Of a DNA stretch of 64,000 bases, positions 41,971 through 55,835 are shown one piece after another. The position numbers were made by a program, and so were the translations under genes. Source of the stretch: an uncultured Flavobacteriaceae bacterium (lineage in GTDB: Bacteria > Bacteroidota > Bacteroidia > Flavobacteriales > Flavobacteriaceae); contig CANMFO010000004.1 in assembly GCA_947497245.1 (NCBI GenBank), positions 119,759 to 183,758 of the forward strand, written 5' to 3'. The notes under the pieces are model-generated. The model saw nothing but the letters and a program-made list of their open reading frames with translations, was not told the origin of the DNA and made no database searches. Position 1 is the stretch's first letter. Each line of letters begins with the position of its first letter.

Positions 41971-42201
41971 AGGAAGGTAAAAAGGAGAACTCCCGTCCGT
42001 CCGGCCCGACCTGTTGTTAAAATCAAGGTGTGTTCGAGCACATATTTTGAAAATCACTTGCTTTATATAAAAAAGAACTTTACCTTGACCTGGCAGTAGC
42101 CCACTGTTAATCAAAGATTCGGATTGCACCTCCCAATGGATATTTTGGGAAAAGTACCGCAATAGGGCGGCACCGGCAGAAATACTGCGACGACCACGAC
42201 C

Positions 42202-43971
42202 ATGACCAAAAAGTTCCTCTTTAGAAAGTTCCTGCCGTTCCTCGGCCTTTTCGGTGTTTTTTTTGGGTGCGACCAACAGCCGGAAGAAGTAAATGGCGGT
42301 CTTTTTTTGCCCGATGATTTCCAAGCTGTCGTCGTGGTCGATAGCATAGCGGAAACGGTCAGGCATATGGCGGTTACCGATGATGGACTGCTCTATGCGA
42401 AACTTCGAAATTCCTCGGAAAATGGATCGGTGGCCGTGTTGCAAGATACCGATGGAGATGGCGGAGCGGACATCATAGAAAAATTTGGAGGATATGGGGG
42501 AAAGGAAAAATGGAGCTATGCAACGGCCATGCGTGTCTACAACGGATATATCTATTTTAGTTCGGACTTAGTCGTATATCGTTACAAACTAAAACCAGGG
42601 ACCTTGGTTCCAACGGGCGAAAAGGAAATTGTCCTCACGGACGATCACGAGCATGGAAAACACGAGCATATCGGAAAACCCATAGCTTTTGACAACAAGG
42701 GCCATATGTTTGTGCCCTTTGGAGCACCTTCCAACGCCTGTCAGGATCCAAAGCGCACCCCGGGAGCCCCCGGACTTGATCCATGCCCCCAGTTGGAGAA
42801 TCACGGAGGGGTTTGGCGGTTCGATGCCAACAAATTGGGACAGACCCAAAAAGACGGTTATAAATACGCCTCGGGCATCCGCAGTGTGGTGGCCATGAAC
42901 TGGAACCCTGTTGACGAGGAATTGTATATTGTAATGCACGGTCGGGACGATTTGCTGAGGTTATGGCCCAATAAGTTCTCTCCATGGGAAAGTGCCCTGT
43001 TGCCTTCCGAGGAATTTATGAGAGTGACCGAGGGCTCCAACTTTGGATGGCCCTATTGCTACTACGACCAACTAAAAGAAAAAAAAGTATTGGCTCCCGA
43101 ATATGGTGGCGATGGGGAGATCGTGGGCCGATGTGATGAATTTGACGACCCCATTATTGGATTCCCCGGTCATTGGGCCCCGAACGACCTGGTCTTTTAT
43201 GAGGGCGATCAGTTTCCGGAACGTTACAAACACGGCGCCTTTATCGCCTTTCACGGCTCCACGAACCGGGCTCCCTACCCACAATCGGGCTATTGCGTGG
43301 GCTTTGTTCCCTTTAAGGACGGGAAACCCAGTGGGGACTGGGAAATATTTGCCGATGGTTTTGCCGAAGTAGATCCCATAGTAAGCGTGAACGACGCAGT
43401 GCACCGCCCCATGGGGATCGCGGTTGGTCCGGATGGGGCCTTATACCTGTCCGACTCTGTCGAGGGCAAAATATGGAAGGTGACCTATACGGGCGACAAG
43501 GCCAGTTTTGGCACCGCCCAGTTGGCCAAAATGGAAGAAAGGAAAACCCTTTCGCATATCAGGACGCCCGACGAGGTCGCCGATAATCTAATGAAGGATG
43601 AGATGGCGGGAGGGGAAAAGACCTACTACCGGTATTGCAGTGCCTGCCATCAGTTGAATGGTCAGGGAGCCTCCGGAAGATTTCCGCCGCTTACCGGAAC
43701 GGATTGGGTCACCGGGGATAAGGAACGCCTGATACAGGTACTGCTCAGGGGAATGGAAGGTAGTTTGGAAGTAGATGGGAAGGTCTTTAACGGGATGATG
43801 CCCCAGCACGGTTTTTTGACCGACCTTGAGATTTCCGAGGTGCTCACCTATATACGATCTAATTTTGGGAACGACGCAAGTCCCATCGCCGAACATGAGG
43901 TTGAAACGATGAGAACCACCCTGGAGAGCAGTGGGGAACCCCTTGAACCGATTCGAACCACCACCGAATAA
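42202..43971 (+). CDS. PQQ-dependent (sorbosone/glucose dehydrogenase-like) beta-propeller fused to a C-terminal cytochrome c domain; lipoprotein
   Basis: Lipobox ...VFFGCDQQ. The soluble sugar dehydrogenase-like core has GWPYCYYD and HRPMGIAVGPDGALYLSD. The C-terminal CSACH heme-binding motif is followed by a downstream Met (GMMPQH). Confidence 0.7.
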   Translation: MTKKFLFRKFLPFLGLFGVFFGCDQQPEEVNGGLFLPDDFQAVVVVDSIAETVRHMAVTDDGLLYAKLRNSSENGSVAVLQDTDGDGGADIIEKFGGYGGKEKWSYATAMRVYNGYIYFSSDLVVYRYKLKPGTLVPTGEKEIVLTDDHEHGKHEHIGKPIAFDNKGHMFVPFGAPSNACQDPKRTPGAPGLDPCPQLENHGGVWRFDANKLGQTQKDGYKYASGIRSVVAMNWNPVDEELYIVMHGRDDLLRLWPNKFSPWESALLPSEEFMRVTEGSNFGWPYCYYDQLKEKKVLAPEYGGDGEIVGRCDEFDDPIIGFPGHWAPNDLVFYEGDQFPERYKHGAFIAFHGSTNRAPYPQSGYCVGFVPFKDGKPSGDWEIFADGFAEVDPIVSVNDAVHRPMGIAVGPDGALYLSDSVEGKIWKVTYTGDKASFGTAQLAKMEERKTLSHIRTPDEVADNLMKDEMAGGEKTYYRYCSACHQLNGQGASGRFPPLTGTDWVTGDKERLIQVLLRGMEGSLEVDGKVFNGMMPQHGFLTDLEISEVLTYIRSNFGNDASPIAEHEVETMRTTLESSGEPLEPIRTTTE

Positions 43972-43990
43972 CTAATTAAAACCGACCATA

Positions 43991-45247
43991 ATGAAAATGA
44001 AGACTTCGATTTCAAAATATTTTTTGGCAACCCTGTTGTTTGTCGGCTTTGTACAGGTCGGACTACCCCAGGATTTTGACATTTTGATCAAAGGGGGACA
44101 TGTGATCGATACCAAGAATTCTATAGATGGTATTCGGGATGTGGCCGTCAAGGATGGGAAGGTGGTCCAGGTAGCTGCCGATATCCAGGAAGACAAGGCT
44201 AAAAAGGTAGTCGATGCCAAGGGGCTCTATGTGGTTCCGGGCCTGATCGATATCCATAGCCATAACTTCCACGGCACGGAACCCGATGCCTATCTCAGCA
44301 ACAGTTTCACTGCACTGCCCCCGGATGGGTTCAGTTTTGAAAGTGGGGTCACGACCATTGTGGATGTCGGCGGTGCCGGTTGGCGCAACTTTCGAATTTT
44401 CAAGGAGCAGACCATCGACCGTTCAAAGACCCGGGTACTGTCCTTCCTGAATATTGTGGGCTCCGGAATGAAAGGTGGCGCCATAGAACAAAACCAGGCG
44501 GATATGGATGCCAAACTTACCGCCATGGTGGCCAAACAATATCCAGGGATCGTCGTCGGGGTGAAATTGGCCCACTATAGTGGATTCGATTGGACGCCCA
44601 CGGAAAGGGCTGTGGAAGCGGGAAAATTGGCGGATATACCCGTGATGATCGATTTTGGGGGGAGCGATCCGGAGCTGTCCATTGAAAAACTCTTTATGGA
44701 GAAATTGCGTCCCGGGGATATTTTTACCCATGCCTATGCACACGTCAAGGGCCGAATCCCGGTAGTCGACGAAGAGGAAAAGGTACGCGACTACGTCTTT
44801 GCCGCCCAAAAGAGGGGCATTGTTTTCGACGTGGGCCATGGAGGGGGGAGCTTTTTGTTCGAACAGGCGGTCCCGGCGATGAAACAGGGGTTCAAACCCA
44901 ATACGATCAGTACCGACCTCCATACCGGTAGCATGAACGGGGGTATGAAGGATATCATCAATGTGATGTCGAAATTCGTCAATATGGAAATGCCGGTGAA
45001 CGAGGTGATCGCATGTGTTACCTGGAATGCCGCAAAGAGCATAAAGCGAACGGATCTTGGCCATTTATCGGTAGGTGCCGTGGCCGATGTTACCATTCTG
45101 AACCTTAGAAAAGGGGATTTCGGTTTTATCGATACCCAGGGCAAAAAAATGATGGGCGATAAAAAACTGGAATGTGAATTGACCATACGGGACGGTAAGG
45201 TGGTATACGATCTTAATGGGCTGGCGTCTCCTCTGTGGAACAAATAA
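43991..45247 (+). CDS. amidohydrolase/deacetylase-family metallohydrolase, secreted
   Basis: Signal peptide, then PGLIDIHSHNFHG (HxH metal motif) and the C-terminal ADVTILNL...IRDGKVVYD. Confidence 0.7.
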   Translation: MKMKTSISKYFLATLLFVGFVQVGLPQDFDILIKGGHVIDTKNSIDGIRDVAVKDGKVVQVAADIQEDKAKKVVDAKGLYVVPGLIDIHSHNFHGTEPDAYLSNSFTALPPDGFSFESGVTTIVDVGGAGWRNFRIFKEQTIDRSKTRVLSFLNIVGSGMKGGAIEQNQADMDAKLTAMVAKQYPGIVVGVKLAHYSGFDWTPTERAVEAGKLADIPVMIDFGGSDPELSIEKLFMEKLRPGDIFTHAYAHVKGRIPVVDEEEKVRDYVFAAQKRGIVFDVGHGGGSFLFEQAVPAMKQGFKPNTISTDLHTGSMNGGMKDIINVMSKFVNMEMPVNEVIACVTWNAAKSIKRTDLGHLSVGAVADVTILNLRKGDFGFIDTQGKKMMGDKKLECELTIRDGKVVYDLNGLASPLWNK

Positions 45248-45260
45248 TAAACACTGTACC

Positions 45261-46376
45261 ATGAAAAAGACCTACCTTCTTTTATTGATCGCTTCCTTGG
45301 TCTGCCTGGTCATCTCCGTCGCTCTGTTGGTCATGGGAAGTGGACATCAAGCCGGACCGGCAGTGATTTTGTTTTTTCTCTTCCTTGCCCTGGCGGCCCG
45401 GGGGCACAAAAGCTTTAAAGGGTTTTCGTTCACGATCATCATTTTTGCCGCCGTGGCGGTTTCCATGTTCTATCCGGCCCATCTCAGGGAAGTGGGCAGT
45501 TTTCAAATGAAGGCGCTCATCGTTCCCTTGCTCCAGATCATCATGTTCGGTATGGGGACCGCAATGAGCATAAAGGACTTTGTAGGGGTTGTAAAGATGC
45601 CCAAGGGAGTATTGGTGGGCCTGGCTTGCCAGTTTACCATCATGCCCATTTTGGGCTTTACCATCGCAACGGCATTTGGTTTTCCAGCTGAAATAGCCGC
45701 AGGTGTAGTATTGGTGGGGTCCTCGCCGAGCGGGTTGGCCTCCAATGTAATGGCCTATCTTGCCAAGGCAAATGTTGCCCTATCCGTGACACTTACGGCC
45801 GTCGCCACACTTTTGGCCCCCCTGATGACCCCTTTGATGATGGAACTGTTCGCGGGGGAATTTGTACCCATAGATTTCTGGGGAATGATGTTGAGCATTG
45901 TGAAAATTGTTATCTTACCCATTATTGCCGGTCTGCTGTTCAATCATTTTTTTCACGGCAAGACCAAATGGTTCGATAAGGCCATGCCCATCGTATCCAT
46001 GGCCGGGATCGCTTTCATCATCATGATCATCACCGCAGCGGGAAGGGATAGTCTACTTTCCATAGGGCTCTTTCTGATCTTGGCGGCCATCATACACAAT
46101 GCCGCAGGATACTTTTTGGGATATTGGGGGTGCCGCTTGTTCAAGATGGACGAGCGGGATTGCCGTACGATTGCCCTTGAAGTGGGGATGCAGAACGGAG
46201 GATTGGCATCTGGCATTGCCCTGGAAATGGGCAAAGTGGCCACGGTCGGCCTCGCGCCGGCGGTCTTTGGCCCCTGGATGAACATTTCGGGCTCTTCCCT
46301 GGCCACGTATTGGAGGGATAAAGATCCGGATAAGACCGAAAAAGAGCCATTGGAGAACATACAATTGGATACCTAA
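45261..46376 (+). CDS. bile acid:sodium symporter (BASS) family transporter
   Basis: ~10 TM segments, GSSPSGLASNVMAYLA and EVGMQNGGLASGIA blocks. ATG at 45261 avoids overlap with the upstream gene. Confidence 0.75.
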   Translation: MKKTYLLLLIASLVCLVISVALLVMGSGHQAGPAVILFFLFLALAARGHKSFKGFSFTIIIFAAVAVSMFYPAHLREVGSFQMKALIVPLLQIIMFGMGTAMSIKDFVGVVKMPKGVLVGLACQFTIMPILGFTIATAFGFPAEIAAGVVLVGSSPSGLASNVMAYLAKANVALSVTLTAVATLLAPLMTPLMMELFAGEFVPIDFWGMMLSIVKIVILPIIAGLLFNHFFHGKTKWFDKAMPIVSMAGIAFIIMIITAAGRDSLLSIGLFLILAAIIHNAAGYFLGYWGCRLFKMDERDCRTIALEVGMQNGGLASGIALEMGKVATVGLAPAVFGPWMNISGSSLATYWRDKDPDKTEKEPLENIQLDT

Positions 46377-46392
46377 AATAAAACGGACACAT

Positions 46393-47310
46393 ATGAAAGC
46401 ATTAAAGACCATATTTTTAGTAGTGATGGTCGGCCATTTGGCCGGGGCCCAGACCGCGACCAAGGATCAAATCCTGTTTCTTACCCCCCAATGGGAAGGA
46501 GAACGTTTTGAAGATGGAAGGCCCAAAGTGGCCGATGACATCCTCGAGAGGCTGAAGGGGGTATCCATTGAGGAAGCCTGGGGCGTCCTGAGAAACGAAG
46601 GCTACCACAACCAGTTCGAAGGCGGATGGAAACTGTTGCACGACGATGTGCCCATTGTCGGGCGTGCCCTTACCGTGCAATATATGCCGGACCGTCCGGA
46701 CGTATCGGACCAGATAAAGAAAAAAGGAAAGGAGGACGGACAGCTCGGCAATACCAATTCTTGGCCCATCGATATGCTTGTGGAAGGCGATGTCTATGTG
46801 GCCGATGGCTTTGGAAAAATCGTGGACGGTACCCTGATAGGCGATAATTTGGGAAATTCCATCTATGCAAAATCCAAAAATGGAGTGGTGTTCAACGCTT
46901 CGAGCCGAGATCTGGAAGGACTTTCAAAGATTGAAGGCTTCAACGCCTTTGTACGGGATTGGCACCCCTCTTTTCTGACCGGGGTGATGTTGGAGAGCAT
47001 CAATACGACCATCCGGATTGGAGCGGCGACCGTACTCCCCGGGGACATTGTTCTGGGGAAAAAGGAGGGAGTGGTCTTCATTCCGGCCCATCTGGCCGAG
47101 AAGGTGGTCGTGACCTCAGAGGTGGTGCGGTTGCGCGACCTGTTCGGAATTGGGAAGTTGAAGGAGGGCAAATACACCCCGGGACAAATAGACAATAAAT
47201 GGTCTGAAGAAATTGAAAAGGATTTTTCACAATGGCTCAAGGACCATATCGATGATCTTCCCGTACCCAAGGAGCAGATACAAGAATTGTTGAAGAAAAG
47301 AACCTGGTAA
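46393..47310 (+). CDS. RraA-family protein (aldolase/decarboxylase-like) with a Sec signal peptide
   Basis: MKALKTIFLVVMVGHLAGAQ leader. The RraA-like core has GDVYVADGFGKIVDGTLIGDNLGNSIYAKSKNGVVFNASSRDLEG. Confidence 0.65.
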   Translation: MKALKTIFLVVMVGHLAGAQTATKDQILFLTPQWEGERFEDGRPKVADDILERLKGVSIEEAWGVLRNEGYHNQFEGGWKLLHDDVPIVGRALTVQYMPDRPDVSDQIKKKGKEDGQLGNTNSWPIDMLVEGDVYVADGFGKIVDGTLIGDNLGNSIYAKSKNGVVFNASSRDLEGLSKIEGFNAFVRDWHPSFLTGVMLESINTTIRIGAATVLPGDIVLGKKEGVVFIPAHLAEKVVVTSEVVRLRDLFGIGKLKEGKYTPGQIDNKWSEEIEKDFSQWLKDHIDDLPVPKEQIQELLKKRTW

Positions 47311-47342
47311 AAACCAAATACACAATCTAAAGAACAGAATAT

Positions 47343-47810
47343 ATGGAAAACAAGACGAGCAGAAGGGCTTCCTTCAAGAAAATGGGCATGGGATTGGCAG
47401 CGCTCTTTGGCGTTGGCACAGTAGGTGCCATGGACAAAAAAGTAAGCAGGAAAGAAGTGGTCGGGCCCATCGTGACCGATCAGGACATACCCCTGTTCTC
47501 TGGAGGGGTAAAACATGGAAACACCTTGTACATCGCTGGAAAGGGCGCCCACTTTGACGGGGACATCAAATCACATACCGACCATGTCCTCAAGGAACTC
47601 GAAAAGGAGCTGGTAAGAAATGGGTCCTCCATGGAGCAGGTATTGAAGGTAAATGTATATCTGGCGGATTTGGCCGATTACAAGGGAATGAACGAAGTGT
47701 TCCGGGGCCGTTTTGGCAAAAATCCACCGGTGCGAACCACAGTGGCCACCTATGGCGGGGTTCCCGGAGATTCGTTGGTAGAGATGGACTGCATCGCGGC
47801 AGTGGATTAA
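47343..47810 (+). CDS. RidA/YjgF-family protein with a Tat-like leader
   Basis: SRRASFKKMGMGLAALFGVG leader. The RidA core has GNTLYIAGKGA...VNVYLADLADYKGMNEVF...PVRTTV...VEMDCIA. Confidence 0.7.
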   Translation: MENKTSRRASFKKMGMGLAALFGVGTVGAMDKKVSRKEVVGPIVTDQDIPLFSGGVKHGNTLYIAGKGAHFDGDIKSHTDHVLKELEKELVRNGSSMEQVLKVNVYLADLADYKGMNEVFRGRFGKNPPVRTTVATYGGVPGDSLVEMDCIAAVD

Positions 47811-47827
47811 TCGTAAAAAAGACAATC

Positions 47828-49042
47828 ATGATCAGTAGAAGAAAATTATTAAAGACCTTATCAAGCGTTCCCGTAATGGGCGGATTGGTCGGAACGGGAT
47901 TATTGACCCCACAATTGATGAAAGCGGCCGTTGCCCAACCGGCCGAGCGGAACTTCTTTAAGGAACTGGGCCTCCGGACCTTTATCAATGCTGCCGGGAC
48001 CTATACCTCCATGACCGGCTCCTTGATGTCGAAGGAAGTAACTTCGGCAATCGCCTATGGAGCGACCGAGTACGTAAATCTCGATCAACTTCACGATAAG
48101 GTGGGCGAACGCATCGCCGAACTCTTGGAATGCGAGTACGCTACAGTGTCCTCGGGAGCTTTTGGGGCCATGACCATTGGTTTGGCCGGGGTAATATGCG
48201 GGATGGACGAAGAGAAAGTGGCGCAGCTTCCCGATACAAATGGACTTAAGAACGAAGTAATAGTACAGGAAGGGCATAATATCGGCTATACGCACGCTTT
48301 GACCAATACCGGGGCAAAATTGGTCAAGGTCAAAACCGCAAAGGAGCTGGAAAAAGCGATCAACAAGAAAACCGCCATGCTCTGGTTTTTGAACGCCAAC
48401 ACAGAAGAGGGAGAGATAAATAGAGAAGAATTTGTCGCCTTGGGCAAAAAGCATGGCATCCCCACATTTATAGACTGCGCGGCAGACGTACCCCCAGTGG
48501 AAAACCTGTTCAAGTTCACCAAGATGGGATTTGATCTCGTGGCGTTTTCCGGAGGAAAGGGCATCCGTGGTCCGCAGAGTGCCGGTCTGTTGTTGGGCAA
48601 AAGAAAATACATAGAAGCAGCAAGGTTGCACACTCCCCCACGCGGTACGACCATTGCCAGGGGAATGAAGGTGAACAAGGAAGAGGTCCTGGGCATGTTG
48701 GTGGCCCTTGAACTTTACTTGGCCAAGGACCATAAAAAAGAATGGGAACTTTGGGAAAACCAGATCAAGCTGATAAGCGACAGTGCATTGTCGGTTGAAG
48801 GGGTGCAGACCGAGATACACGTGCCCCCACATGCAAACCATGTGCCTTCCCTTCGGATCAAGTGGGACGCGAAAAAGGTCAAGATCAGTCCGGCGGACGC
48901 ACGTAAAAAGTTAATGGACGGCCATCCGGCCATTGCCACGGTGGGCAATGATGAAATGATAGGGATGACCACTTGGATGATGGAGCCGGGTCAGGAGCGG
49001 ACTGTCGCCAAACGCATAAAAGAAGTATTGTCGAGTACCTGA
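47828..49042 (+). CDS. SelA/DgaE-like PLP-dependent enzyme (putative ammonia-lyase) with a Tat signal
   Basis: MISRRKLLKTLSSVPVMGGL leader. FSGGKGIRGPQSAGLLLGKRKYI matches the PLP-lysine block of the SelA / D-glucosaminate-6-phosphate ammonia-lyase family. Confidence 0.6.
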   Translation: MISRRKLLKTLSSVPVMGGLVGTGLLTPQLMKAAVAQPAERNFFKELGLRTFINAAGTYTSMTGSLMSKEVTSAIAYGATEYVNLDQLHDKVGERIAELLECEYATVSSGAFGAMTIGLAGVICGMDEEKVAQLPDTNGLKNEVIVQEGHNIGYTHALTNTGAKLVKVKTAKELEKAINKKTAMLWFLNANTEEGEINREEFVALGKKHGIPTFIDCAADVPPVENLFKFTKMGFDLVAFSGGKGIRGPQSAGLLLGKRKYIEAARLHTPPRGTTIARGMKVNKEEVLGMLVALELYLAKDHKKEWELWENQIKLISDSALSVEGVQTEIHVPPHANHVPSLRIKWDAKKVKISPADARKKLMDGHPAIATVGNDEMIGMTTWMMEPGQERTVAKRIKEVLSST

Positions 49043-49066
49043 TAAACAGAAAACAAACCCAGCCAT

Positions 49067-49651
49067 ATGAGAAATTCTTTTTTGATCCTGCTATTGTCCA
49101 TTGTATTGGTTTCCTGCAACGAGGTCCAAGACCGCCAGATGGAGGCCCAGGCCGAAGATAAGGTTGCCGAGATCATTCCGGAGGGGTATGATCCCGAGGC
49201 AAAACTCCAGGAACTGGGCATTCAATTGAGCACCCCTTCGGCTCCGGTAGCAAATTACGTGAATGCCGTTCGCACGGGGAATCTTATTTTTTTGGCGGGC
49301 AAAGGCCCTTTGAAGCCCGACGGTGAAAACATCACGGGAAAACTGGGAGCGGACCTGACCATAGAAGAGGGCTACGAAGCGGCTCGGATTACCGGAATCA
49401 ATCAGCTTTCGGTTCTAAAGGCCGAACTTGGCAATTTGAACAAGGTAAAACGAATCGTAAAAGTAAAGGGCATGGTCAATGCCACTCCGGATTTTGCCGA
49501 CCAGCCCAAAGTGGTCAATGGATATTCCGATTTAATGGTGGCCGTTTTTGGAGAACGAGGAAAACATGCCAGAGCAGCCGTGGGAATGGGCTCTTTACCC
49601 GGTAACATTGCCGTGGAGATCGATATGGTCGTCGAACTCTGGGAAGAATAA
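49067..49651 (+). CDS. RidA/YjgF-family protein, lipoprotein signal
   Basis: Lipobox LLSIVLVSCNE. The RidA-like core has VRTGNLIFLAGKGP...RAAVGMGSLPGNIAVEIDMVVE. Confidence 0.7.
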   Translation: MRNSFLILLLSIVLVSCNEVQDRQMEAQAEDKVAEIIPEGYDPEAKLQELGIQLSTPSAPVANYVNAVRTGNLIFLAGKGPLKPDGENITGKLGADLTIEEGYEAARITGINQLSVLKAELGNLNKVKRIVKVKGMVNATPDFADQPKVVNGYSDLMVAVFGERGKHARAAVGMGSLPGNIAVEIDMVVELWEE

Positions 49652-49665
49652 TACCCATTGGAACT

Positions 49666-50667
49666 ATGACCCGGCGATGGCAGACCACTTCCTTTCTTTT
49701 AAGCTGCAGCGCCCTACTTTTCCTTATTGGGCCACTGGCGGGTTGCAAGCCCGACACCAAAGAACCCGAGTTTCTGTTCAGGGCCAGCCTTTTGGTAGGC
49801 GAGGACCATACTTGGTACCAGGCTGTGGCCTTTTTTGCGGAAATTCTGGAAGAACGTTCGGATGGCAGGTTAAAACTCCAAGTATACCCATCGGAACAAT
49901 TGGCGAAGGAAATAGAGGCCATACGTTTAATACGGGCCGGTGTGATCGACATGACCCTGACCGGTTCCACATTGAGCAATTGGAAAGAGGTGATGGCCTT
50001 TTGCGAACTGCCGTTTCTGCTCAAGGATTCCACGGAGATGAAAGTTTTGATCAATGGTCCCGTCGGTAAGCGAATGGAAGAGGCGATGCTCCAAATAGGT
50101 TTACGGCCATTGGGCTATTTTCAGCGGGGGGAACGGCATTTGACCTCCAATCGACCGATAAAGCACCCCGATGACCTCGATGGCTTGATAATTCGCGTCC
50201 CCAATGTGCCTACCTTTGTAACGGCTTGGAGTACCCTGGGCGCCAAACCCACTCCGATGTCGTTTTCCGAAGTCTTTACCTCTTTACAGCAAGGAACCAT
50301 TGAGGCCCAGGAAAATCCTTTTGCCATGATTAAAAACGCTGGTTTTGCGGAAGTGCAACAGTACATTAACCTGACCAGCCATGTGGTGAGCTGGACGTAT
50401 CCCGTAATAGGTGAAAAGCAGTTCCAAAAGTTGCCAGATGACCTAAAGAAGATCCTTTTGGACGCCTCGCGTGACATGCAGACCTACGAACACCAACTAT
50501 TTATAGAAAATGAAAAGAGCGTCCAGGACGAATTGAAGGCCAAGGGCATGGAATTTATCGAGGTCGACAAGGAAGCCTTCATCCAAAAGTGCGAACCGGG
50601 CATTTATGAAAGCCTTTCCCCACCAATGAAGGAAGTGTACAACCAAATAAAGGACGAACTGAAATGA
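49666..50667 (+). CDS. dctP: TRAP transporter substrate-binding protein
   Basis: Lipoprotein leader, DctP-like length and blocks (QENPFAMI). It lies directly upstream of the Q and M genes, with an ATGA overlap at 50664-50667. Confidence 0.8.
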   Translation: MTRRWQTTSFLLSCSALLFLIGPLAGCKPDTKEPEFLFRASLLVGEDHTWYQAVAFFAEILEERSDGRLKLQVYPSEQLAKEIEAIRLIRAGVIDMTLTGSTLSNWKEVMAFCELPFLLKDSTEMKVLINGPVGKRMEEAMLQIGLRPLGYFQRGERHLTSNRPIKHPDDLDGLIIRVPNVPTFVTAWSTLGAKPTPMSFSEVFTSLQQGTIEAQENPFAMIKNAGFAEVQQYINLTSHVVSWTYPVIGEKQFQKLPDDLKKILLDASRDMQTYEHQLFIENEKSVQDELKAKGMEFIEVDKEAFIQKCEPGIYESLSPPMKEVYNQIKDELK

Positions 50668-51131
50668 GGCTGTACAAAACCGTGGGCAGATTTCTCAAAA
50701 TCGGCACCCTATTGAGCACGACGGGTTTGATCGCCACCGTATCCCTTCAGATATTCGCGCGTTTCTTTTTGGCCAATGCCCCCTCTTGGACAGAGGAGGC
50801 GTCCCGTATTTTTTTCATTTATGCCGTCTCCTTTGCCGCTGGATTGGCACTGAAAACCAACTATTATGTGCATCTTGATATGTTCTACAACTCCTTTCCC
50901 CCCAAAATGAAGCGGATCCTTAATTTGATCATACCAATGGTCACCTTTTTACTGTTCGCCCTTATGGACATTTATGCCGTGCAGCTCGTCATGATCGGAT
51001 TGCCGGAAAGATCGCCCAGTTTGGGGGTCCCTATGGCCTTTGCGTTTTTTAGCATGTTCATTATGGCAACGGCGATCTGTTTTTATGCCTGGGAAAAGAT
51101 CAAAAGAGAACTAAAAAACCACAAACCATGA
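50664..51131 (+). CDS. dctQ: TRAP transporter small permease
   Basis: 155 aa with 4 TM segments, located between the P and M components. ATGA overlap at 51128-51131. Confidence 0.75.
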   Translation: MRLYKTVGRFLKIGTLLSTTGLIATVSLQIFARFFLANAPSWTEEASRIFFIYAVSFAAGLALKTNYYVHLDMFYNSFPPKMKRILNLIIPMVTFLLFALMDIYAVQLVMIGLPERSPSLGVPMAFAFFSMFIMATAICFYAWEKIKRELKNHKP

Positions 51132-52402
51132 TTTGGATACTGATAACCGTTTTTGTGGCCTGCTTGATCCTAAGGTATCCCATCGCATTTTCACTGGGCT
51201 TTTCCTGTCTGATCTACCTTTTGTTCAAGGGAATTCCCTTGCTCATTGTTCCCATGAAAATGTACTCCGGCATAGATGTGTTTGTGCTGTTGAGCATACC
51301 GGGTTTCATCATTGCGGGAAATCTGATGAACCAAGGTGGGCTTACGGAGAAGATCATTCGATTTTGCAACCATCTTTTGGGTCATATCAGGGGCGGGCTA
51401 TCTTTAGTGAACATTGGGGCATCCATGCTGTTTGCGGGCATTTCGGGTACCGCCATTTCCGATACGGCCAGTATGGGGTCCATTATGATACCGGCCATGA
51501 AAAAAGAGGGCTACGATGCCGATTTTTCCTGCGCCGTCACGGCGGCATCCTCTACCGTTGGCCCCATAATTCCACCGAGTGTGCCCATGATCATTGCAGC
51601 GACCCTTAGCGGTCTTTCGGTTGGAAAGCTTTTTTTGGCGGGGGCCATTCCCGGATTGCTGCTGGGTCTGGGACTTATGGTCATGGCCTATCTTATTGCG
51701 AAACGGAAAAAGTACCCCAAGCACCCACGAAGTAGTATTGGCCAGATAGCACGGGGTTTTGTCGATACTTTTTGGTCGCTCTTGATGACCTTCATTATCC
51801 TCTTTGGCATTATTGGGGGAATCTTCACGCCAACGGAGGCTTCGGTCATCGCCATTGTGTACGCCCTGGTCATCGGAAAGTTCGTATATGGAAGATTGAC
51901 CTTCAAAAACGTTCAGATCGTACTTTTGGATTCGATGAAAACATCGGCTTCGCTGATGGTCTTGGTGGGTTTTGCCAACCTTTTCGGATGGATATTGATC
52001 ACCGAGCAGATACCACAGACCATATCGAGTGAGATTCTTGGATTTACGACCAACAAGTATGTGGTACTGCTGCTTATCAACATTTTGTTGATTGCCGTGG
52101 GTACCTTTATGGAGACCATTGCTGCCTTGCTCATCCTGTTCCCGATTTTGTTGAAGGTGGCCGTTTCCGTGGAGGTAGACCCGATCCATTTTGCCGTCAT
52201 TGCGGTGCTGAACCTGATTATTGGCCTTACCACGCCACCGGTAGGGGTCTGTCTTTTTGTGGCCTCCAGTATCGGGAAGGTTTCCATCGGGAAGGTCAGT
52301 CGGGCCGGCTTCCCTTTTTTGATGGTGAGTTTATTGGTTCTGGTTTTGGTGACCTTGTTCCCATCCCTGTCGCTTGCGCTGCCCAACCTTTTTATGGATT
52401 AA
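51128..52402 (+). CDS. dctM: TRAP transporter large permease
   Basis: 424 aa and polytopic, with DctM-typical blocks (GGLTEKIIRF, LFAGISGTAISDTASMGSIMIPAM). Confidence 0.85.
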   Translation: MIWILITVFVACLILRYPIAFSLGFSCLIYLLFKGIPLLIVPMKMYSGIDVFVLLSIPGFIIAGNLMNQGGLTEKIIRFCNHLLGHIRGGLSLVNIGASMLFAGISGTAISDTASMGSIMIPAMKKEGYDADFSCAVTAASSTVGPIIPPSVPMIIAATLSGLSVGKLFLAGAIPGLLLGLGLMVMAYLIAKRKKYPKHPRSSIGQIARGFVDTFWSLLMTFIILFGIIGGIFTPTEASVIAIVYALVIGKFVYGRLTFKNVQIVLLDSMKTSASLMVLVGFANLFGWILITEQIPQTISSEILGFTTNKYVVLLLINILLIAVGTFMETIAALLILFPILLKVAVSVEVDPIHFAVIAVLNLIIGLTTPPVGVCLFVASSIGKVSIGKVSRAGFPFLMVSLLVLVLVTLFPSLSLALPNLFMD

Positions 52403-52526
52403 GGACCCTTTTTTAACCCGCTACTTTCGATCCCCAATTTTTTGGAACCATAATTACGATTCAAAACTTTCCGTAAGCGAGAAGCTCTGAAAACCGGTTT
52501 GCCCCGATTTTAAAAACGCTTTGGGA

Positions 52527-53510
52527 TCATATACTTCCATAGGTGTCCAGGATGATCTTATGGGTATCTTCCTTCGATTTGAACACATCAAAAGTACGAC
52601 CCTGGGTACGCATGGCCCCCAAGGTGTTGGCATATTTTGCGGCCCGTATGTAATTGGTGGGGTCTTCCAAGAGGCCGTACCCCAATCCACCCGCAAACGA
52701 ATCCCCGCATCCCGTGGTGTCCACCACATGGTCCACTTTTACCGAAGGAACGATTTCTTGATGTATCTTTTCCCCTTTCTTGAAAAACACCGCCCCGCCT
52801 TCCGAATCCAAGGTAACGATCAGCGACTTGACCCCATGATCCAGGGCATGCTTGGCAAATGGTTGCAAATGTCCGGTATCCTTCCCGTTGAAGGGAGTAA
52901 GATTTTCCAGTTGATACTCACTTTCGAACCAACAGCATTTGGACTCCTCCAGATTCATTTTTAGCACGTCGATAAAAGGCAGCCACTGGTTGCGGTCGAC
53001 CCAGAACTTTATGAACCTATCCCCCAAGGCTGTTACCGTACAAGTAGGCCCGTGGGCATCGAAAATCACCACGCCCTTGCTATTTTCCTTAATGTATTTC
53101 AAGGTTTCCAGGGGCACCTCATAGTCCGTTATGGGAACGCATACGAACACGTTGCAGTGCAGCAGTTGTTCGATGTCCTCCGGAACGATGGGGTTCATAA
53201 AACCGGTCTGTTTTTCCAAACGGTTGTTTTGATCTAGGAACGTCAAACTGATAACGTCGCCCTGATCGGCATCGGAGGTAATATGCTCACTGTTGATATT
53301 GGGATAATCGGCCAAAATTTCCTTTATGGCCCCTTCGTCCTTCTTTCTCACATGGGATACCAGGAACACCGTACCCTCATCACCCAGGAGTTTGGCCAGG
53401 CCAATGGCCGTATGCATGGCGCACCCGTATTTTTCGATGACCTCGCCTTTATGGGTCGTGATGTGATCTCTTGGGATCGGGCCTAGAACGGCAACGTTAT
53501 ATTTGGACAT
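52527..53510 (-). CDS. PfkB-family carbohydrate kinase
   Basis: C-terminal ATP/anion-hole motif VVDTTGCGDSFAGG. No export signal. Confidence 0.8.
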   Translation of the reverse strand: MSKYNVAVLGPIPRDHITTHKGEVIEKYGCAMHTAIGLAKLLGDEGTVFLVSHVRKKDEGAIKEILADYPNINSEHITSDADQGDVISLTFLDQNNRLEKQTGFMNPIVPEDIEQLLHCNVFVCVPITDYEVPLETLKYIKENSKGVVIFDAHGPTCTVTALGDRFIKFWVDRNQWLPFIDVLKMNLEESKCCWFESEYQLENLTPFNGKDTGHLQPFAKHALDHGVKSLIVTLDSEGGAVFFKKGEKIHQEIVPSVKVDHVVDTTGCGDSFAGGLGYGLLEDPTNYIRAAKYANTLGAMRTQGRTFDVFKSKEDTHKIILDTYGSI

Positions 53511-53691
53511 ATGATCTTGTTAACAGCACGGTTTCGGATATAGTTCGAACGTACCTATTGGTTTTTTCCGATGTCGGTGTTCGAAATCCTATGGAAAATA
53601 CAAAAATTTACAGGACGACCCATACGAAATGCATAATTTAGCGAAAAGGCCCAAACCATTGATGTATCCACTTGTACCAAAAATTGAACGG

Positions 53692-54522: not shown

Positions 54523-54526
54523 GCTC

Positions 54527-55513: not shown

Positions 55514-55835
55514 AGGTTTGTATTAAAATTGGATTTCCTTCCCGGTCGACTTCACCGTAACCGATTTAAAATTGTCTTCGTTAAGATACGCATCGTTCTT
55601 CTATTAGAGGCGATATAGGGTCCCATTCCCGCCCAAAGCATCCTGCCTTCCAAAAGCATGGCGCCCTTTTTTCACTTCGGCTTGGGTAGGATCCAATTGG
55701 GACAGATCCAAAAGTTCATCGGCCCTTTTCCGTCCCCTGGGTGAAATCGGCATCGCATTCCATGGCCTTCGGACTTGATGTGGGAAATCGTGGCTGTTGC
55801 TTCGGCGGACGCTCCGGTACCGTGCTGCCATCCAG

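What the first reader, a model, noticed from the sequence alone, without database searches (positions are those of the whole stretch)
46393..49651. RraA-like, RidA, DgaE/SelA-like PLP enzyme and RidA in a row, every one carrying an export signal
All four families are normally cytoplasmic. Here the RraA-like protein has a Sec leader and the first RidA has SRRASFKK-type Tat-like leader. The PLP enzyme has a canonical SRRKLLK Tat leader, consistent with export after cofactor loading. The second RidA has a lipobox (LVSCNE). A DgaE-like ammonia-lyase generates enamine/imine intermediates that RidA proteins quench, and RraA-fold proteins include 2-keto-acid aldolases. The set therefore reads like a complete deamination and cleavage route relocated to the periplasm. 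Characterised DgaE acts on a phosphorylated substrate, which would be unexpected outside the cytoplasm, so a different, unphosphorylated substrate is implied.
Basis: partly seen in the sequence, partly recalled or inferred. Interest (0 to 1): 0.65.

Follow-up and report, generated by a model that had tools for sequence, protein, structure and literature searches.

The report
Exported amino-sugar-acid deamination gene cluster
A marine flavobacterium, like many other Bacteroidota, carries a conserved gene cluster that sends normally cytoplasmic enzymes (a deacetylase, a vitamin-B6 ammonia-lyase, two imine-hydrolysing Rid proteins and an aldolase-like protein) out of the cytoplasm, most likely to strip acetate and ammonia from oxidised amino sugars in the periplasm; that pathway location has not been described.

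Summary
Four consecutive + strand genes (46393-49651) encode an RraA-like protein, an archetypal RidA, a DgaE/SelA-like PLP enzyme and a Rid1-subfamily protein. Each starts with a leader that lies outside its family domain.

The leaders are conserved in 82 related Bacteroidota loci:
- An RR pair occurs in 74/74 RidA and 88/88 PLP orthologues, with glycine-rich, weakly hydrophobic cores (Tat-type).
- A Sec-type leader occurs in 37/37 RraA-like proteins.
- A lipobox occurs in 43/49 Rid1-type proteins.

The unit is larger than reported. The most constant partners of the PLP enzyme are RidA (74/82) and an exported cog3964 amidohydrolase (68/82). A PQQ-type sugar dehydrogenase-cytochrome c fusion and a CBM9-like protein lie upstream, and in 18 loci there is also an exported gluconolactonase. 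RraA-like plus a BASS transporter form an accessory pair. A TRAP transporter, a pfkB kinase and an AraD1-type 2-keto-3-deoxy-acid dehydratase follow.

The PLP enzyme sits in a Tat-bearing clade separate from true DgaE. It lacks DgaE's His162-His163 pair and Arg301.

Best reading: a periplasmic route that oxidises amino sugars, deacetylates the product, eliminates ammonia to give a 2-keto-3-deoxy acid, optionally cleaves it, and imports the product. Substrate and localisation are untested.

The parts
41224..41970 (+). Exported CBM9_2-like protein, first gene of the same-strand array.
   Evidence: PF16011, 227 bits. PDB 4jpq, an uncharacterised protein, E 7e-48. Hydrophobic leader in 38/38 orthologues. 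Present in 38/82 loci, always beside the dehydrogenase. A CBM9-like protein also lies next to the PLP gene in the Chryseolinea and Agaribacillus loci.
42202..43971 (+). Exported fusion of a glucose/sorbosone-dehydrogenase-like (PQQ-type) beta-propeller with a C-terminal class I cytochrome c. Its leader is lipoprotein-like (FFGC).
   Evidence: PF07995, 46 bits, and PF00034. Orthologues also hit PF22807 TrAA12. PDB sequence hits cover only the cytochrome c domain. Leader in 45/46 orthologues. Present in 47/82 loci.
43991..45247 (+). Exported cog3964 amidohydrolase/deacetylase-type metallohydrolase. Sec leader is about residues 1-27.
   Evidence: NF006689, 452 bits, above its cut-off of 371, matched from residue 28. 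PDB hits: 8je0, 2ogj and 2ics. Leader in 65/66 orthologues. Present in 68/82 loci.
45216..46376 (+). BASS-family Na+-coupled carboxylate transporter. The true start is probably Met16, at about 45261.
   Evidence: PF01758, 146 bits. TIGR00841 and the PanS model score 246-254 bits, below their cut-offs. Co-occurs with RraA-like: both genes in 29 loci, one alone in 10, neither in 25.
46393..47310 (+). Exported RraA-like protein, a candidate class II 4-hydroxy-2-oxoacid aldolase/decarboxylase. Sec leader is residues 1-19 (46393-46449), with the cleavage site AGA|Q inferred.
   Evidence: PF03737, 62 bits. PDB 5x15 and 3noj, with the Arg-Asp pair aligned. Leader ending AQ|T in 37/37 orthologues.
47343..47810 (+). 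Archetypal RidA-type imine/enamine deaminase with a Tat-type leader, residues 1-29 (47343-47429): TSRRASFKK, a Gly-rich core, and VGA|M.
   Evidence: PF01042, 65 bits. PDB 2dyy, E 1e-14, with the Arg105 equivalent kept in PPVRTTV. RR in 74/74 orthologues. Lies directly upstream of the PLP gene in 74/75 loci. Gly fraction of the h-core is 0.24.
47828..49042 (+). DgaE/SelA-like fold-type I PLP enzyme with a Tat-type leader, residues 1-36 (47828-47935): ISRRKLLK, a Gly-rich core, Lys32, and AVA|Q. The PLP lysine is Lys244.
   Evidence: TIGR01437, 199 bits. 7lc0, E 3.9e-38. Foldseek top hits are 7lc0 and then 8t7j. RR in 88/88 orthologues. Lys244 is invariant. Tat-bearing members form their own clade.
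49067..49651 (+). Rid1-subfamily Rid protein made as a lipoprotein. Leader is residues 1-16, with lipobox LVS-C17.
   Evidence: PF14588, 72 bits. PDB 3d01, 9bk9 (PA0814) and 9bkb (ACIAD3089); the last two are Rid1 proteins with imine deaminase activity. Arg is kept in HARAAVG. Lipobox in 43/49 orthologues.
49666..52402 (+). TRAP transporter DctP (lipoprotein leader), DctQ and DctM. The genes overlap and follow the Rid1-type gene after 14 nt.
   Evidence: PF03480, 252 bits; TIGR00787, above its cut-off. ORF layout. Present at the same position in 8 loci.
52527..53510 (-). Cytoplasmic pfkB-family sugar/sugar-acid kinase, a candidate 2-keto-3-deoxy-acid kinase.
   Evidence: PF00294, 59 bits; no equivalog model reached. 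No leader.
53629..54522 (+). Exported alpha/beta-hydrolase esterase. The start is probably Met22.
   Evidence: PF20434 and PF07859. Leader in 10/10 orthologues. Lies directly after the Rid1-type gene in several loci.
54527..55513 (-). Cytoplasmic GguC/AraD1-family (FAH-fold) 2-keto-3-deoxy-sugar-acid dehydratase.
   Evidence: NF040903, 491 bits, above its cut-off of 340. AraD1 is L-2-keto-3-deoxyarabinonate dehydratase. No leader.
55836..57659 (-). Sodium:solute symporter (SSS family).
   Evidence: PF00474, 90 bits. An SSS gene also lies beside the cluster in 5 other loci.

Best explanation
The four genes are the centre of an operon-like array of about 11 kb (41224-52402). Its soluble products are all exported. 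The array most likely carries out a periplasmic breakdown of oxidised amino sugars, that is, N-acyl-2-amino-2-deoxy-aldonic acids such as N-acetyl-D-glucosaminate.

Proposed order of steps:
1. The PQQ-type dehydrogenase-cytochrome c fusion oxidises C1 of an amino sugar and passes the electrons to the respiratory chain. A CBM9-like partner probably assists. In some genomes an exported gluconolactonase opens the lactone.
2. The cog3964 amidohydrolase removes the N-acyl group.
3. The PLP enzyme is loaded with cofactor in the cytoplasm and exported folded by Tat. It eliminates the beta-hydroxyl of the D-alpha-amino acid and releases an enamine/imine. It lacks DgaE's His163 proton donor.
4. The Tat-exported RidA and the Rid1-type lipoprotein hydrolyse that imine to a 2-keto-3-deoxy acid and ammonia.
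5. Where present, the RraA-like class II aldolase cleaves the 4-hydroxy-2-oxoacid to pyruvate plus an aldehyde.
6. BASS, TRAP and/or SSS transporters import the keto acids. The cytoplasmic pfkB kinase and AraD1-type dehydratase continue from there.

Shown here: gene content, family membership, conservation of the leaders, synteny, and presence or absence of key residues. Inferred: every catalytic step, the substrate, and the actual localisation.
For: Export:
- The leaders are conserved in orthologues at 57-88% identity. RR is present in 74/74 RidA and 88/88 PLP orthologues, against 3% or less in the Sec-type leaders of the same loci.
- The RR leaders have lower core hydrophobicity (2.20 and 1.84, against 2.8-3.0) and more glycine in the core (0.24 against 0.05).
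- These are the recognised properties of Tat signals (PMC5539426).
- Independent gene callers also include the leaders.

Unit:
- RidA lies directly upstream of the PLP gene in 74/75 loci.
- The amidohydrolase is present in 68/82 loci and the dehydrogenase-cytochrome c fusion in 47/82.
- An exported SMP-30/gluconolactonase lies between or beside them in 18 loci. The clearest case is L074: dehydrogenase, lactonase, amidohydrolase, RraA-like, RidA, PLP enzyme, Rid1-type.
- SusC/SusD and a 3-keto-disaccharide hydrolase occur in some loci.

Chemistry:
- The PLP lysine is invariant, and the carboxylate-binding Arg226 aligns with Lys258/Arg259.
- His162/His163 are absent. His163 is the C3 proton donor, proposed to prevent release of a reactive intermediate (PMC9529869). 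Its absence fits the obligatory Rid partners.
- Both Rid proteins keep the catalytic Arg.

Precedent for the logic: the cytoplasmic ong cluster uses an amidohydrolase-superfamily deacetylase (OngB), a PLP deaminase (OngC), an essential RidA (OngD), a KDG kinase and an SSS transporter to convert N-acetyl-glucosaminate to KDG-6-P, acetate and NH3 (PMC9537276).

Downstream genes: TRAP transporter, pfkB kinase, AraD1-type 2-keto-3-deoxy-acid dehydratase and SSS transporter.
Against: - No enzyme activity or localisation was tested.
- The curated Tat models do not reach their cut-offs, and no tat genes can be checked in this window.
- The dehydrogenase's propeller domain matches GSDH only modestly (46 bits) and has no sequence hit in the PDB. 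Its substrate and its PQQ supply are unknown.
- The window holds no lactonase. No chitinase, GH20 or LPMO was found among the larger ORFs scanned.
- From my own knowledge: the only characterised cog3964 enzymes hydrolyse acetyl-(R)-mandelate-type esters, not N-acetyl-aldonates. The paper could not be read here.
- Cap15, an O2- and PLP-dependent enzyme with different chemistry, is almost as close structurally as DgaE.
- Many Cytophagales and Saprospiraceae loci have the core without the dehydrogenase.
- Distant Tat-bearing relatives from soils mostly lack the partners within the DNA held.
- The RraA-like protein's function is inferred only from a conserved Arg-Asp pair at about 29 bits to the aldolase.
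Confidence: 0.5

Rival explanations
1. Same exported module, but acting on D-amino acids rather than sugar acids. The amidohydrolase would deacylate N-acyl-D-serine or D-threonine, or similar cell-wall- or peptide-derived compounds. The PLP enzyme would act as a D-serine/D-threonine dehydratase. The Rid proteins would hydrolyse 2-aminoacrylate or 2-iminobutyrate. The overall purpose would be periplasmic scavenging of ammonia and keto acids.
For: - The chemistry is identical: beta-elimination from a D-alpha-amino-beta-hydroxy acid.
- RidA's classical substrates are serine- and threonine-derived enamines.
- The amidohydrolase-RidA-PLP core occurs without any sugar dehydrogenase in many Cytophagales and Saprospiraceae loci.
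- A periplasmic amino-acid oxidase-RidA complex that scavenges ammonium is known in Chlamydomonas (cited in PMC5053998).
- BASS-type carriers could take up pyruvate or 2-oxobutyrate.
Against: - Sugar-oxidation and sugar-acid genes recur around the core: dehydrogenase-cytochrome c fusion, gluconolactonase, CBM9-like protein, SusC/SusD, 3-keto-disaccharide hydrolase, AraD1-type dehydratase and pfkB kinase.
- The nearest characterised PLP relative acts on a sugar acid.
Confidence: 0.17
2. The PLP enzyme is not a simple ammonia-lyase. It would perform other chemistry found in the SelA-like family, such as Cap15-type O2-dependent oxidative decarboxylation of a beta-hydroxy-alpha-amino acid, transamination or desulfuration. 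On this reading the cluster tailors or detoxifies an unusual amino compound in the periplasm.
For: - Cap15 (8t7j) is the second-best sequence and structure match: E 6.7e-28 and TM 0.72, against 0.74 for DgaE.
- The enzyme fails the DgaE equivalog cut-off and lacks the His-His pair.
- The Cytophagales versions of the cluster add a Tat-exported DegT-type aminotransferase, a ceramidase-like amidase and a Tat-DUF362 protein.
Against: - An imine-hydrolysing RidA lies directly upstream in 74/75 loci. This points to a released enamine/imine, which is the outcome of elimination or oxidation, not decarboxylation to an amide.
- Sequence similarity to DgaE is stronger than to Cap15.
Confidence: 0.12
3. 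The leaders are artefacts of choosing the first start codon. On this reading the true starts lie downstream (for example Met30 of RidA, Met31 of the PLP enzyme, Met25 of the Rid1-type protein) and the proteins are cytoplasmic.
For: - Internal Met codons exist just after three of the leaders.
- The Tat HMMs do not reach their cut-offs.
- Bacteroidota lack strong Shine-Dalgarno sites, so starts cannot be fixed from the DNA.
Against: - The leader regions stay in frame and keep signal-peptide architecture in every orthologue with a complete N-terminus. RR is invariant in 74/74 and 88/88, while neighbouring residues vary.
- The internal Met codons are not conserved.
- Intergenic gaps are only 17-32 nt when the leaders are included.
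- The RraA-like protein has no alternative start before the domain except Met12, which lies inside the hydrophobic core.
- Leaderless relatives form a different clade.
Confidence: 0.03

Closest known systems
[quoted passage not shown]
   Same: - Best sequence and structure match of the PLP enzyme: E 3.9e-38, Foldseek TM 0.74, about 31% identity.
- Same fold-type I SelA-like core and PLP lysine.
- A basic residue sits at the carboxylate-binding position.
- The same pathway logic: a lyase followed by an aldolase.
   Different: - The window enzyme has a Tat leader and belongs to a separate, leader-bearing clade.
- It scores 170 bits against the 600 needed for the equivalog model and 199 against 385 for the subfamily model.
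- The His162-His163 pair, strictly conserved in DgaE, is Asn191/Thr192 here, and Arg301 of the phosphate cluster is Ser341.
- No PTS gene was found from 41224 to 57659.
- The aldolase candidate is a metal-dependent RraA-fold protein, not a DgaF-type class I aldolase.
ongBCD-kdgK-ongIT cluster of Pseudoalteromonas prydzensis (catabolism of N-acetyl-glucosaminate from LPMO-oxidised chitin; PMC9537276)
   Same: The same set of functions: an amidohydrolase-superfamily deacetylase, a PLP-dependent deaminase giving KDG and NH3, an essential RidA-family protein, a sugar-acid kinase and a Na+-solute symporter.
   Different: - OngB, OngC and OngD are predicted to be cytoplasmic.
- OngB is a D-aminoacylase-type enzyme, not cog3964. 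D-aminoacylases match only the first ~65 residues of the window protein.
- OngC is described as a D-amino-acid deaminase, not a SelA-like enzyme.
- The ong cluster has no dehydrogenase-cytochrome c fusion, no RraA-like protein and no second Rid protein.
- The relation is one of analogy, not orthology.
Cytoplasmic cog3964 amidohydrolase / SelA-related enzyme pairs (EF_0837/EF_0838-type clusters; Atu3266, PDB 2ogj; EF0837, PDB 2ics)
   Same: - The same two families are adjacent.
- The window amidohydrolase passes the NF006689 cut-off and matches 2ogj and 2ics over its full length.
- A leaderless amidohydrolase-PLP pair was seen in metagenome locus L146.
   Different: - Those pairs have no leaders. 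From my own knowledge, they are linked to PTS uptake and a KDGP-type aldolase.
- Here both proteins are exported and Rid proteins are added.
- From my own knowledge (Ornelas et al. 2013; the title is confirmed but the text is not held): the only measured cog3964 activity is hydrolysis of acetyl-(R)-mandelate-type esters.
Periplasmic L-amino-acid oxidase-RidA complex of Chlamydomonas, and bacterial lao-cccA-ridA clusters
   Same: A Rid protein works outside the cytoplasm with an imine-producing enzyme, linked to a cytochrome c, for ammonium release.
   Different: - The imine producer there is a flavin oxidase acting on L-amino acids, not a PLP lyase.
- The main Rid-family survey does not mention signal peptides or the periplasm.
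HMG/CHA aldolase (PDB 3noj) and other RraA-fold class II pyruvate aldolases/oxaloacetate decarboxylases
   Same: RraA fold (PF03737), with the catalytic Arg-Asp pair aligned.
   Different: - The match is only about 29 bits.
- The window protein has extra N- and C-terminal segments (305 aa) and a Sec leader.
- It scores far below every aldolase equivalog cut-off.
- The nearest solved relative is an uncharacterised 'putative transferase', 5x15.

Membership tests
[quoted passage not shown] | Score above the curated equivalog (NF047797, 600 bits) or subfamily (TIGR01437, 385 bits) cut-off | tested here: not met
   170 and 199 bits.
[quoted passage not shown] | PLP-binding lysine in the S-G-x-K motif | tested here: met
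   Lys244 aligns with the lysine of 7lc0. It is invariant in 23 diverse and 92 representative sequences.
[quoted passage not shown] | His162-His163 pair, strictly conserved in DgaE; His163 is the C3 proton donor (PMC9529869) | tested here: not met
   These residues align with Asn191/Thr192. His is rare at these columns in both the Tat-bearing and the leaderless representatives.
[quoted passage not shown] | Arg301/Arg332/Arg346 cluster that binds the 6-phosphate | tested here: inconclusive
   Arg301 aligns with Ser341. That column is mixed in the Tat group, whereas the leaderless group has Arg in 25/55. Arg332 and Arg346 could not be mapped, because the C-terminus of 7lc0 and close DgaE orthologues were not available.
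[quoted passage not shown] | Cytoplasmic enzyme fed by a PTS that phosphorylates the substrate | tested here: not met
   The enzyme has a conserved Tat-type leader. No PTS gene was found among the genes from 41224 to 57659.
SelA (selenocysteine synthase) | Score above the TIGR00474 cut-off (268 bits), and an N-terminal tRNA-binding domain | tested here: not met
   44 bits, covering the core only. SelA chains match at about E 1e-11 and rank below DgaE and Cap15 by fold.
RidA subfamily (47343-47810) | YjgF/Rid fold with the catalytic arginine (Arg105 of S. enterica RidA) | tested here: met
   PF01042, 65 bits, above its cut-off of 27. The Arg in PPVRTTV aligns with the Arg of PH0854. TIGR00004 gives 58 bits, below its 106 cut-off.
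Rid1 subfamily (49067-49651) | Closest to the Rid1 proteins PA0814 and ACIAD3089; arginine retained | tested here: met
   PF14588, 72 bits, above its cut-off of 35. Matches 9bk9, 9bkb and 3d01 at E 1e-17 to 3e-35, with Arg in HARAAVG.
RraA-fold class II aldolase/decarboxylase | RraA fold with the catalytic Arg and metal-binding Asp of HMG/CHA aldolase | tested here: inconclusive
   The fold and the Arg-Asp pair are present. All aldolase equivalog scores are far below their cut-offs. No activity data.
cog3964 amidohydrolase/deacetylase | Score above the NF006689 cut-off; full-length match to 2ogj and 2ics; HxH metal motif | tested here: met
   452 bits against a cut-off of 371. Full-length PDB matches. 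DIHSHNFHG is present in the sequence.
Tat (twin-arginine) signal peptide (RidA and PLP enzyme) | Invariant RR in an S/T-R-R-x-F-L-K-like motif, a weakly hydrophobic Gly-rich core, and a basic residue before an AxA site | tested here: met
   RR in 74/74 and 88/88 orthologues. Core hydropathy 2.20 and 1.84, against 2.8-3.0 for the Sec-type leaders. Gly fraction 0.24 against 0.05. The criteria are taken from PMC5539426.
Tat (twin-arginine) signal peptide (RidA and PLP enzyme) | Recognition by curated Tat models or dedicated predictors | tested here: inconclusive
   For the PLP leader, TIGR01409 gives 15.9 bits against 16.7 and PF10518 gives 10.9 against 22.7. There is no hit for the RidA leader. 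TatP and SignalP were not available.
Tat (twin-arginine) signal peptide (RidA and PLP enzyme) | TatA/TatC present in the genome, and Tat-dependent export | not testable with these tools
   No TatA-like motif in the 64 kb window. The rest of the genome is not available.
Bacterial lipoprotein signal (Rid1-type protein) | Lipobox [LVI][ASTVI][GAS]C after a hydrophobic core | tested here: met
   LVS-C17 in the window. A lipobox is present in 43/49 orthologues.

The most novel reading that the evidence does not exclude
Marine and soil Bacteroidota run a complete amino-sugar catabolic route outside the cytoplasm, coupled to the respiratory chain. The proposed order is:
1. PQQ-type dehydrogenase-cytochrome c fusion.
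2. Lactonase.
3. cog3964 deacetylase.
4. Tat-exported PLP lyase.
5. Exported Rid proteins.
6. RraA-fold aldolase.

The route would yield electrons, acetate, ammonia and pyruvate in the periplasm without any phosphorylation. It would also provide the first bacterial cases of a Tat-exported RidA and a Tat-exported PLP lyase working as a pair. Reactive-enamine control by Rid proteins would then be needed in the periplasm too.
Probability: 0.3. Interest if true: 0.75.

Novelty: new variant of a known kind. Interest (0 to 1): 0.6.

Why it matters
- Localisation. Rid proteins, SelA/DgaE-like PLP enzymes, RraA-fold proteins and cog3964 amidohydrolases are all treated as cytoplasmic. Here a whole set is exported, and this is conserved across Bacteroidota families. 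Tat-bearing relatives of the PLP enzyme also make up a third of the 94 full-length (360-460 aa) representatives among its 150 best-scoring ones (a sample biased towards the Tat-bearing query), a set that plausibly reaches beyond Bacteroidota.
- Ecology. If the proposed function is right, it adds a periplasmic, phosphorylation-independent way of using (oxidised) amino sugars. That is relevant to the turnover of chitin, peptidoglycan and glycoproteins in the sea, and it parallels the recently described cytoplasmic ong pathway.
- Enzymology. It would give the first physiological context for cog3964 enzymes. It would show that enamine/imine quenching by Rid proteins matters outside the cytoplasm. 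It would add PLP enzymes and cofactor-less Rid trimers to the list of Tat cargo.
- Testability. All the proteins are small and soluble, so the hypothesis can be tested directly.

Tried and rejected
- The 23-sequence alignment was too diverse for the locus scan. A 7-sequence alignment worked, but it returned only Bacteroidota.
- Curated Tat HMMs gave sub-threshold hits or none. I therefore relied on conservation and leader composition.
- My hydrophobicity and lipobox scan is crude. It flags the Rossmann N-terminus of a cytoplasmic epimerase.
- DgaE's Arg332 and Arg346 could not be mapped. Only residues 4-330 of 7lc0 were printed, and the closest representative is 40% identical.
- The AlphaFold model from a shallow alignment is mediocre (mean pLDDT 68.5). 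It was used only for the fold ranking.
- The cog3964 paper is not held. Searches for PDB codes 8JE0, 8WZY and 8T7J found no paper.
- No paper in the library links these families in Flavobacteria, or links a PLP enzyme to Tat.
- No SMP-30 lactonase, DegT, DUF362 or FAD oxidoreductase homologue is in the window. No TatA-like motif is present either.
- The rest of the window is not a polysaccharide-utilisation locus.
- Distant Tat-bearing relatives from metagenomes mostly lack recognisable partners within the DNA held: the amidohydrolase in 17/80 and RidA in 17/80. Conservation of the full cluster is therefore shown only for Bacteroidota.
- Rejected: SelA function (no tRNA-binding domain, weak score), and mis-called starts.

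Full report
**1. What is in the sequence**

The reported interval holds four + strand ORFs at exactly the stated coordinates: 46393-47310, 47343-47810, 47828-49042 and 49067-49651. They are 17-32 nt apart and each is preceded by an A-rich, Shine-Dalgarno-less stretch typical of Bacteroidota.

Family assignments:
- RraA-like: PF03737, 62 bits.
- RidA: PF01042, 65 bits.
- SelA/DgaE-like PLP enzyme: PF03841. TIGR01437 'DgaE family' scores 199 bits, below its 385 cut-off. The DgaE equivalog NF047797 scores 170 against 600. SelA TIGR00474 scores only 44 bits.
- A second Rid protein: PF14588, 72 bits.

In every case the family domain begins after an N-terminal addition. For the PLP enzyme, TIGR01437 position 2 aligns with residue 44.

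Close relatives are 88-91% identical and come from Poritiphilus, Muriicola and Eudoraea. The window is therefore from a marine member of the Flavobacteriaceae.

**2. Are the leaders real?**

I could not run SignalP or TatP, so I tested conservation instead.

A scan of one genome per species returned 80 loci, all Bacteroidota: Flavobacteriaceae, Cyclobacteriaceae, other Cytophagales, Saprospiraceae, Roseivirgaceae, Rhodothermales and Bacteroidales MAGs. Their identity to the window PLP enzyme is 57-88%. I called ORFs in them and assigned orthologues by BLASTP.

For every orthologue with a complete N-terminus, the leader is in frame and keeps signal-peptide architecture:

| Protein | Orthologues with leader | Leader type |
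|---|---|---|
| RraA-like | 37/37 | hydrophobic, ends AQ\|T |
| RidA | 74/74 | T/S-R-R-x-S-F-K-K |
| PLP enzyme | 88/88 | S/T-R-R-K-x-L-K |
| Rid1-type | 49/49 hydrophobic core, 43/49 lipobox | lipoprotein |
| GguC (cytoplasmic control) | 0/5 | none |

The two RR leaders differ systematically from the others in the same loci:

| Property | RR leaders (RidA, PLP) | Sec/lipoprotein leaders |
|---|---|---|
| RR present | 100% | 3% or less |
| Mean 9-residue hydropathy | 2.20 and 1.84 | 2.8-3.0 |
| Glycine fraction of the core | 0.24 | 0.05 |

An almost invariant arginine pair and a less hydrophobic, glycine-rich core are the accepted marks of Tat signals (PMC5539426).

Within 13 close homologues the RR-K-x-L-K motif is fixed, while the rest of the leader diverges faster than the mature protein. 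Independent gene callers include the leaders.

Caveats:
- The curated Tat HMMs are just below cut-off for the PLP leader (TIGR01409 15.9 against 16.7) and silent for RidA.
- tat genes cannot be checked in this window.
- My own scan has false positives.

I consider export very likely (about 0.9) and the Tat route likely for RidA and the PLP enzyme.

**3. The unit is bigger than four genes**

The same-strand array runs from 41224 to 52402 with gaps of 14-32 nt after the first gene. In order it holds:
- a CBM9_2-like protein;
- a glucose/sorbosone-dehydrogenase-like propeller fused to a class I cytochrome c;
- a cog3964 amidohydrolase (NF006689, 452 bits against a cut-off of 371, matched from residue 28);
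- a BASS transporter;
- the four reported genes;
- a TRAP transporter, DctPQM.

The first three also carry leaders, in 38/38, 45/46 and 65/66 orthologues.

On the other strand follow a pfkB kinase, an exported esterase (+ strand), a GguC/AraD1-family protein (491 bits against 340) and an SSS symporter. AraD1 is L-2-keto-3-deoxyarabinonate dehydratase.

Frequencies across 82 non-redundant loci. These are lower bounds, because many contigs are short.

| Gene | Loci |
|---|---|
| RidA | 74 |
| Amidohydrolase | 68 |
| Rid1-type | 50 |
| Dehydrogenase-cytochrome c | 47 |
| CBM9-like | 38 |
| RraA-like | 38 |
| BASS | 38 |
| TRAP | 8 |

RidA lies directly upstream of the PLP gene in 74/75 loci.

RraA-like and BASS travel together: both in 29 loci, one alone in 10, neither in 25. 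RraA-like without BASS goes with TRAP in three loci.

So the constant core is amidohydrolase-RidA-PLP enzyme, and RraA-like/BASS is an accessory module.

An exported SMP-30/gluconolactonase lies next to the amidohydrolase, or diverges from the CBM9 gene, in 18 loci. The Agaribacillus locus L074 reads: 3-keto-disaccharide hydrolase, dehydrogenase-cytochrome c, lactonase, amidohydrolase, RraA-like, RidA, PLP enzyme, Rid1-type, an unassigned gene, CBM9-like, SSS. The window itself has no such lactonase.

**4. What the proteins look like in detail**

*PLP enzyme*
- An AlphaFold model is of moderate quality (mean pLDDT 68.5, residues 1-66 below 50). It ranks 7lc0 first (TM 0.74). Next comes 8t7j, which is Cap15, an O2- and PLP-dependent enzyme (TM 0.72). 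SelA follows.
- Lys244 aligns with the PLP lysine and is invariant. DgaE's carboxylate-binding Arg226 aligns with Lys258/Arg259.
[quoted passage not shown] His163 is the C3 proton donor, thought to prevent release of a cytotoxic intermediate (PMC9529869). In the window protein these positions are Asn191/Thr192.
- Arg301 of the phosphate cluster is Ser341, and the column is unconserved in the Tat group. Arg332 and Arg346 could not be mapped.
- An exhaustive search of 1.84 billion representatives found 742 relatives at E <= 1e-30. Among the 150 best, those of about 405-420 aa begin with RR leaders, and those of about 370-380 aa begin directly at 'MxIYExLGV'.
- A neighbour-joining tree built on the mature domain only separates a clade of 39 (30 with RR leaders) from a clade of 55 (51 leaderless, plus DgaE).
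- The window enzyme is therefore a member of an exported sister group of DgaE-like enzymes. It is not a DgaE.

*Rid proteins*
- The first is an archetypal RidA. Its best match is PH0854, and the Arg105 equivalent is kept.
- The second is closest to PA0814 and ACIAD3089. These are Rid1-subfamily imine deaminases.
- Subfamilies RidA and Rid1-3 keep the arginine and hydrolyse imines.

*RraA-like protein*
- The nearest solved structure is 5x15, a 'putative transferase'.
- The Arg-Asp catalytic pair of HMG/CHA aldolase (3noj) aligns.

*Amidohydrolase*
- It gives full-length matches to 8je0 ('amidase'), 2ogj and 2ics, the cog3964 structures.

**5. How it most likely works**

The nearest functional precedent is the cytoplasmic ong cluster of Pseudoalteromonas (PMC9537276):
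- OngB, an amidohydrolase-superfamily enzyme, deacetylates N-acetyl-glucosaminate.
- OngC, a PLP enzyme, deaminates glucosaminate to KDG and NH3.
- The RidA protein OngD is genetically essential.
- KdgK phosphorylates KDG, and an SSS carrier imports the substrate.

The window cluster has the same functional cast, built from different families and placed outside the cytoplasm. It has in addition an upstream sugar dehydrogenase wired to cytochrome c and, in relatives, a lactonase.

I therefore propose the following sequence:
1. C1 oxidation of an amino sugar in the periplasm.
2. Opening of the lactone.
3. N-deacylation by the cog3964 enzyme.
4. Beta-elimination by the Tat-exported PLP enzyme.
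5. Imine hydrolysis by the Rid proteins.
6. Optional aldol cleavage by the RraA-like protein.
7. Uptake of the 2-keto acids through BASS, TRAP or SSS carriers.
8. Cytoplasmic processing by the pfkB kinase and the AraD1-type dehydratase.

The absence of His163 offers a reason why Rid partners are obligatory here. This is inference.

Why Tat? Export after cofactor loading is plausible for the PLP enzyme. For RidA, which has no cofactor, fast trimer folding or co-ordinated delivery are guesses.

Every catalytic step and the substrate are inferred. Overall confidence is 0.5.

**6. Rivals**

- (a) The same chemistry acting on N-acyl-D-Ser/Thr-type compounds, for ammonium scavenging (0.17). It is favoured by loci without the dehydrogenase and by the Chlamydomonas periplasmic oxidase-RidA precedent. 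It is disfavoured by the recurrent sugar-acid genes.
- (b) Non-lyase chemistry such as that of Cap15 (0.12). It is favoured by the close structural match and by Cytophagales variants that add a Tat-DegT aminotransferase, a ceramidase-like amidase and a Tat-DUF362 protein. It is disfavoured by the near-obligate RidA.
- (c) Mis-called starts (0.03). This is contradicted by the conservation data.

**7. Breadth**

A metagenome scan with distant Tat-bearing relatives gave 80 loci at 40-66% identity to representative P0130. The amidohydrolase is present in 17 and a Rid protein in 17, some of them with their own RR leaders. Many contigs are short or carry other neighbours. The PLP-RidA pairing thus appears to extend beyond the close Bacteroidota relatives (these metagenome contigs carry no taxon assignment), but the full cluster is documented only there.

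**8. Novelty and verdict**

No paper in the held library describes exported Rid/DgaE-like/RraA/cog3964 clusters, or a Tat-exported PLP enzyme of this kind. The Rid-family survey does not mention signal peptides. Databases name the proteins generically ('aminotransferase class V-fold PLP-dependent enzyme', 'selenocysteine synthase').

The chemistry is familiar: a deacetylase, a PLP lyase, RidA and an aldolase. The compartment, the enzyme families used and the coupling to a periplasmic dehydrogenase are new. I rate it a new variant of a known kind, with interest 0.6.

Its interpretation is largely right but incomplete: it missed the amidohydrolase core and the oxidative front end, treated RraA-like as a core part, and took the enzyme to be closer to DgaE than it is.

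Noticed in passing
window 4641-6128 (-): A Gfo/Idh/MocA oxidoreductase carries a Tat-like motif (MQRRKFIKNTVAASTAFTIV). The motif starts 21 residues after the first ATG, so the real start is probably Met22. This is another exported oxidoreductase in the same genome, and it shows the organism uses RRKFIK-type leaders.
   Followed up: partly
window 45216-45261 and 53629-53692: In two genes the first in-frame start is probably not the real one. The BASS ORF overlaps the end of the amidohydrolase gene by 32 nt, and Met16 (MKKTYLLLL...) looks like its start. The esterase's hydrophobic leader begins at Met22 (MYKTLAFGLLILF...).
   Followed up: partly
L054, L056, L060 (Cytophagales MAGs), about 3.7-8.1 kb and 11.3-15.4 kb: A variant cluster adds three genes upstream of amidohydrolase-RidA-PLP: a DegT/DnrJ/EryC1 sugar aminotransferase with an RR leader (a second exported PLP enzyme), a neutral-ceramidase-like amidase, and a DUF362 protein with an RR leader. 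Several PQQ_2 beta-propeller proteins lie downstream.
   Followed up: partly
L059, L062, L063, L064, L068 (Bacteroidota/Bacteroidales MAGs), directly after the PLP gene: Here an FAD-dependent oxidoreductase (PF12831) with an RR leader and a CBM9-like protein follow the PLP gene, in place of the Rid1-type lipoprotein.
   Followed up: no
L066 and L075 (Chryseolinea): The Tat-bearing PLP gene stands without the amidohydrolase or RidA. It lies between a SusC/SusD pair and a CBM9-like protein followed by a large DUF5107-TPR protein. This suggests a link to glycan uptake and a persistent tie to CBM9-like proteins.
   Followed up: partly
window 41224-41970: The CBM9_2-like protein matches an uncharacterised solved structure (4jpq, E 7e-48) over its full length. 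It always sits beside the dehydrogenase-cytochrome c fusion. Whether it binds carbohydrate, or haem as DOMON-type domains do, is unknown.
   Followed up: no
window 10000-34000: G+C content is about 0.53, against 0.46-0.51 in the flanks. This stretch holds a BNR/sortilin-repeat protein, gamma-glutamyltranspeptidase, a beta-lactamase-fold protein, a MatE transporter and a 1174-aa TraB/GumN-family protein.
   Followed up: no
window 47900-48841 (-) and 46863-47552 (-): Long antisense ORFs (313 and 229 aa) lie inside the PLP and RraA-like/RidA genes. The sense-strand genes are conserved and have family matches, so these are probably shadow ORFs; they were not scanned against any family library.
   Followed up: partly
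L146 9213-11658 (-): A leaderless PLP enzyme (starting MGVYEDLGIVP...) lies next to a leaderless cog3964 amidohydrolase. This looks like a cytoplasmic counterpart of the exported pair.
   Followed up: no
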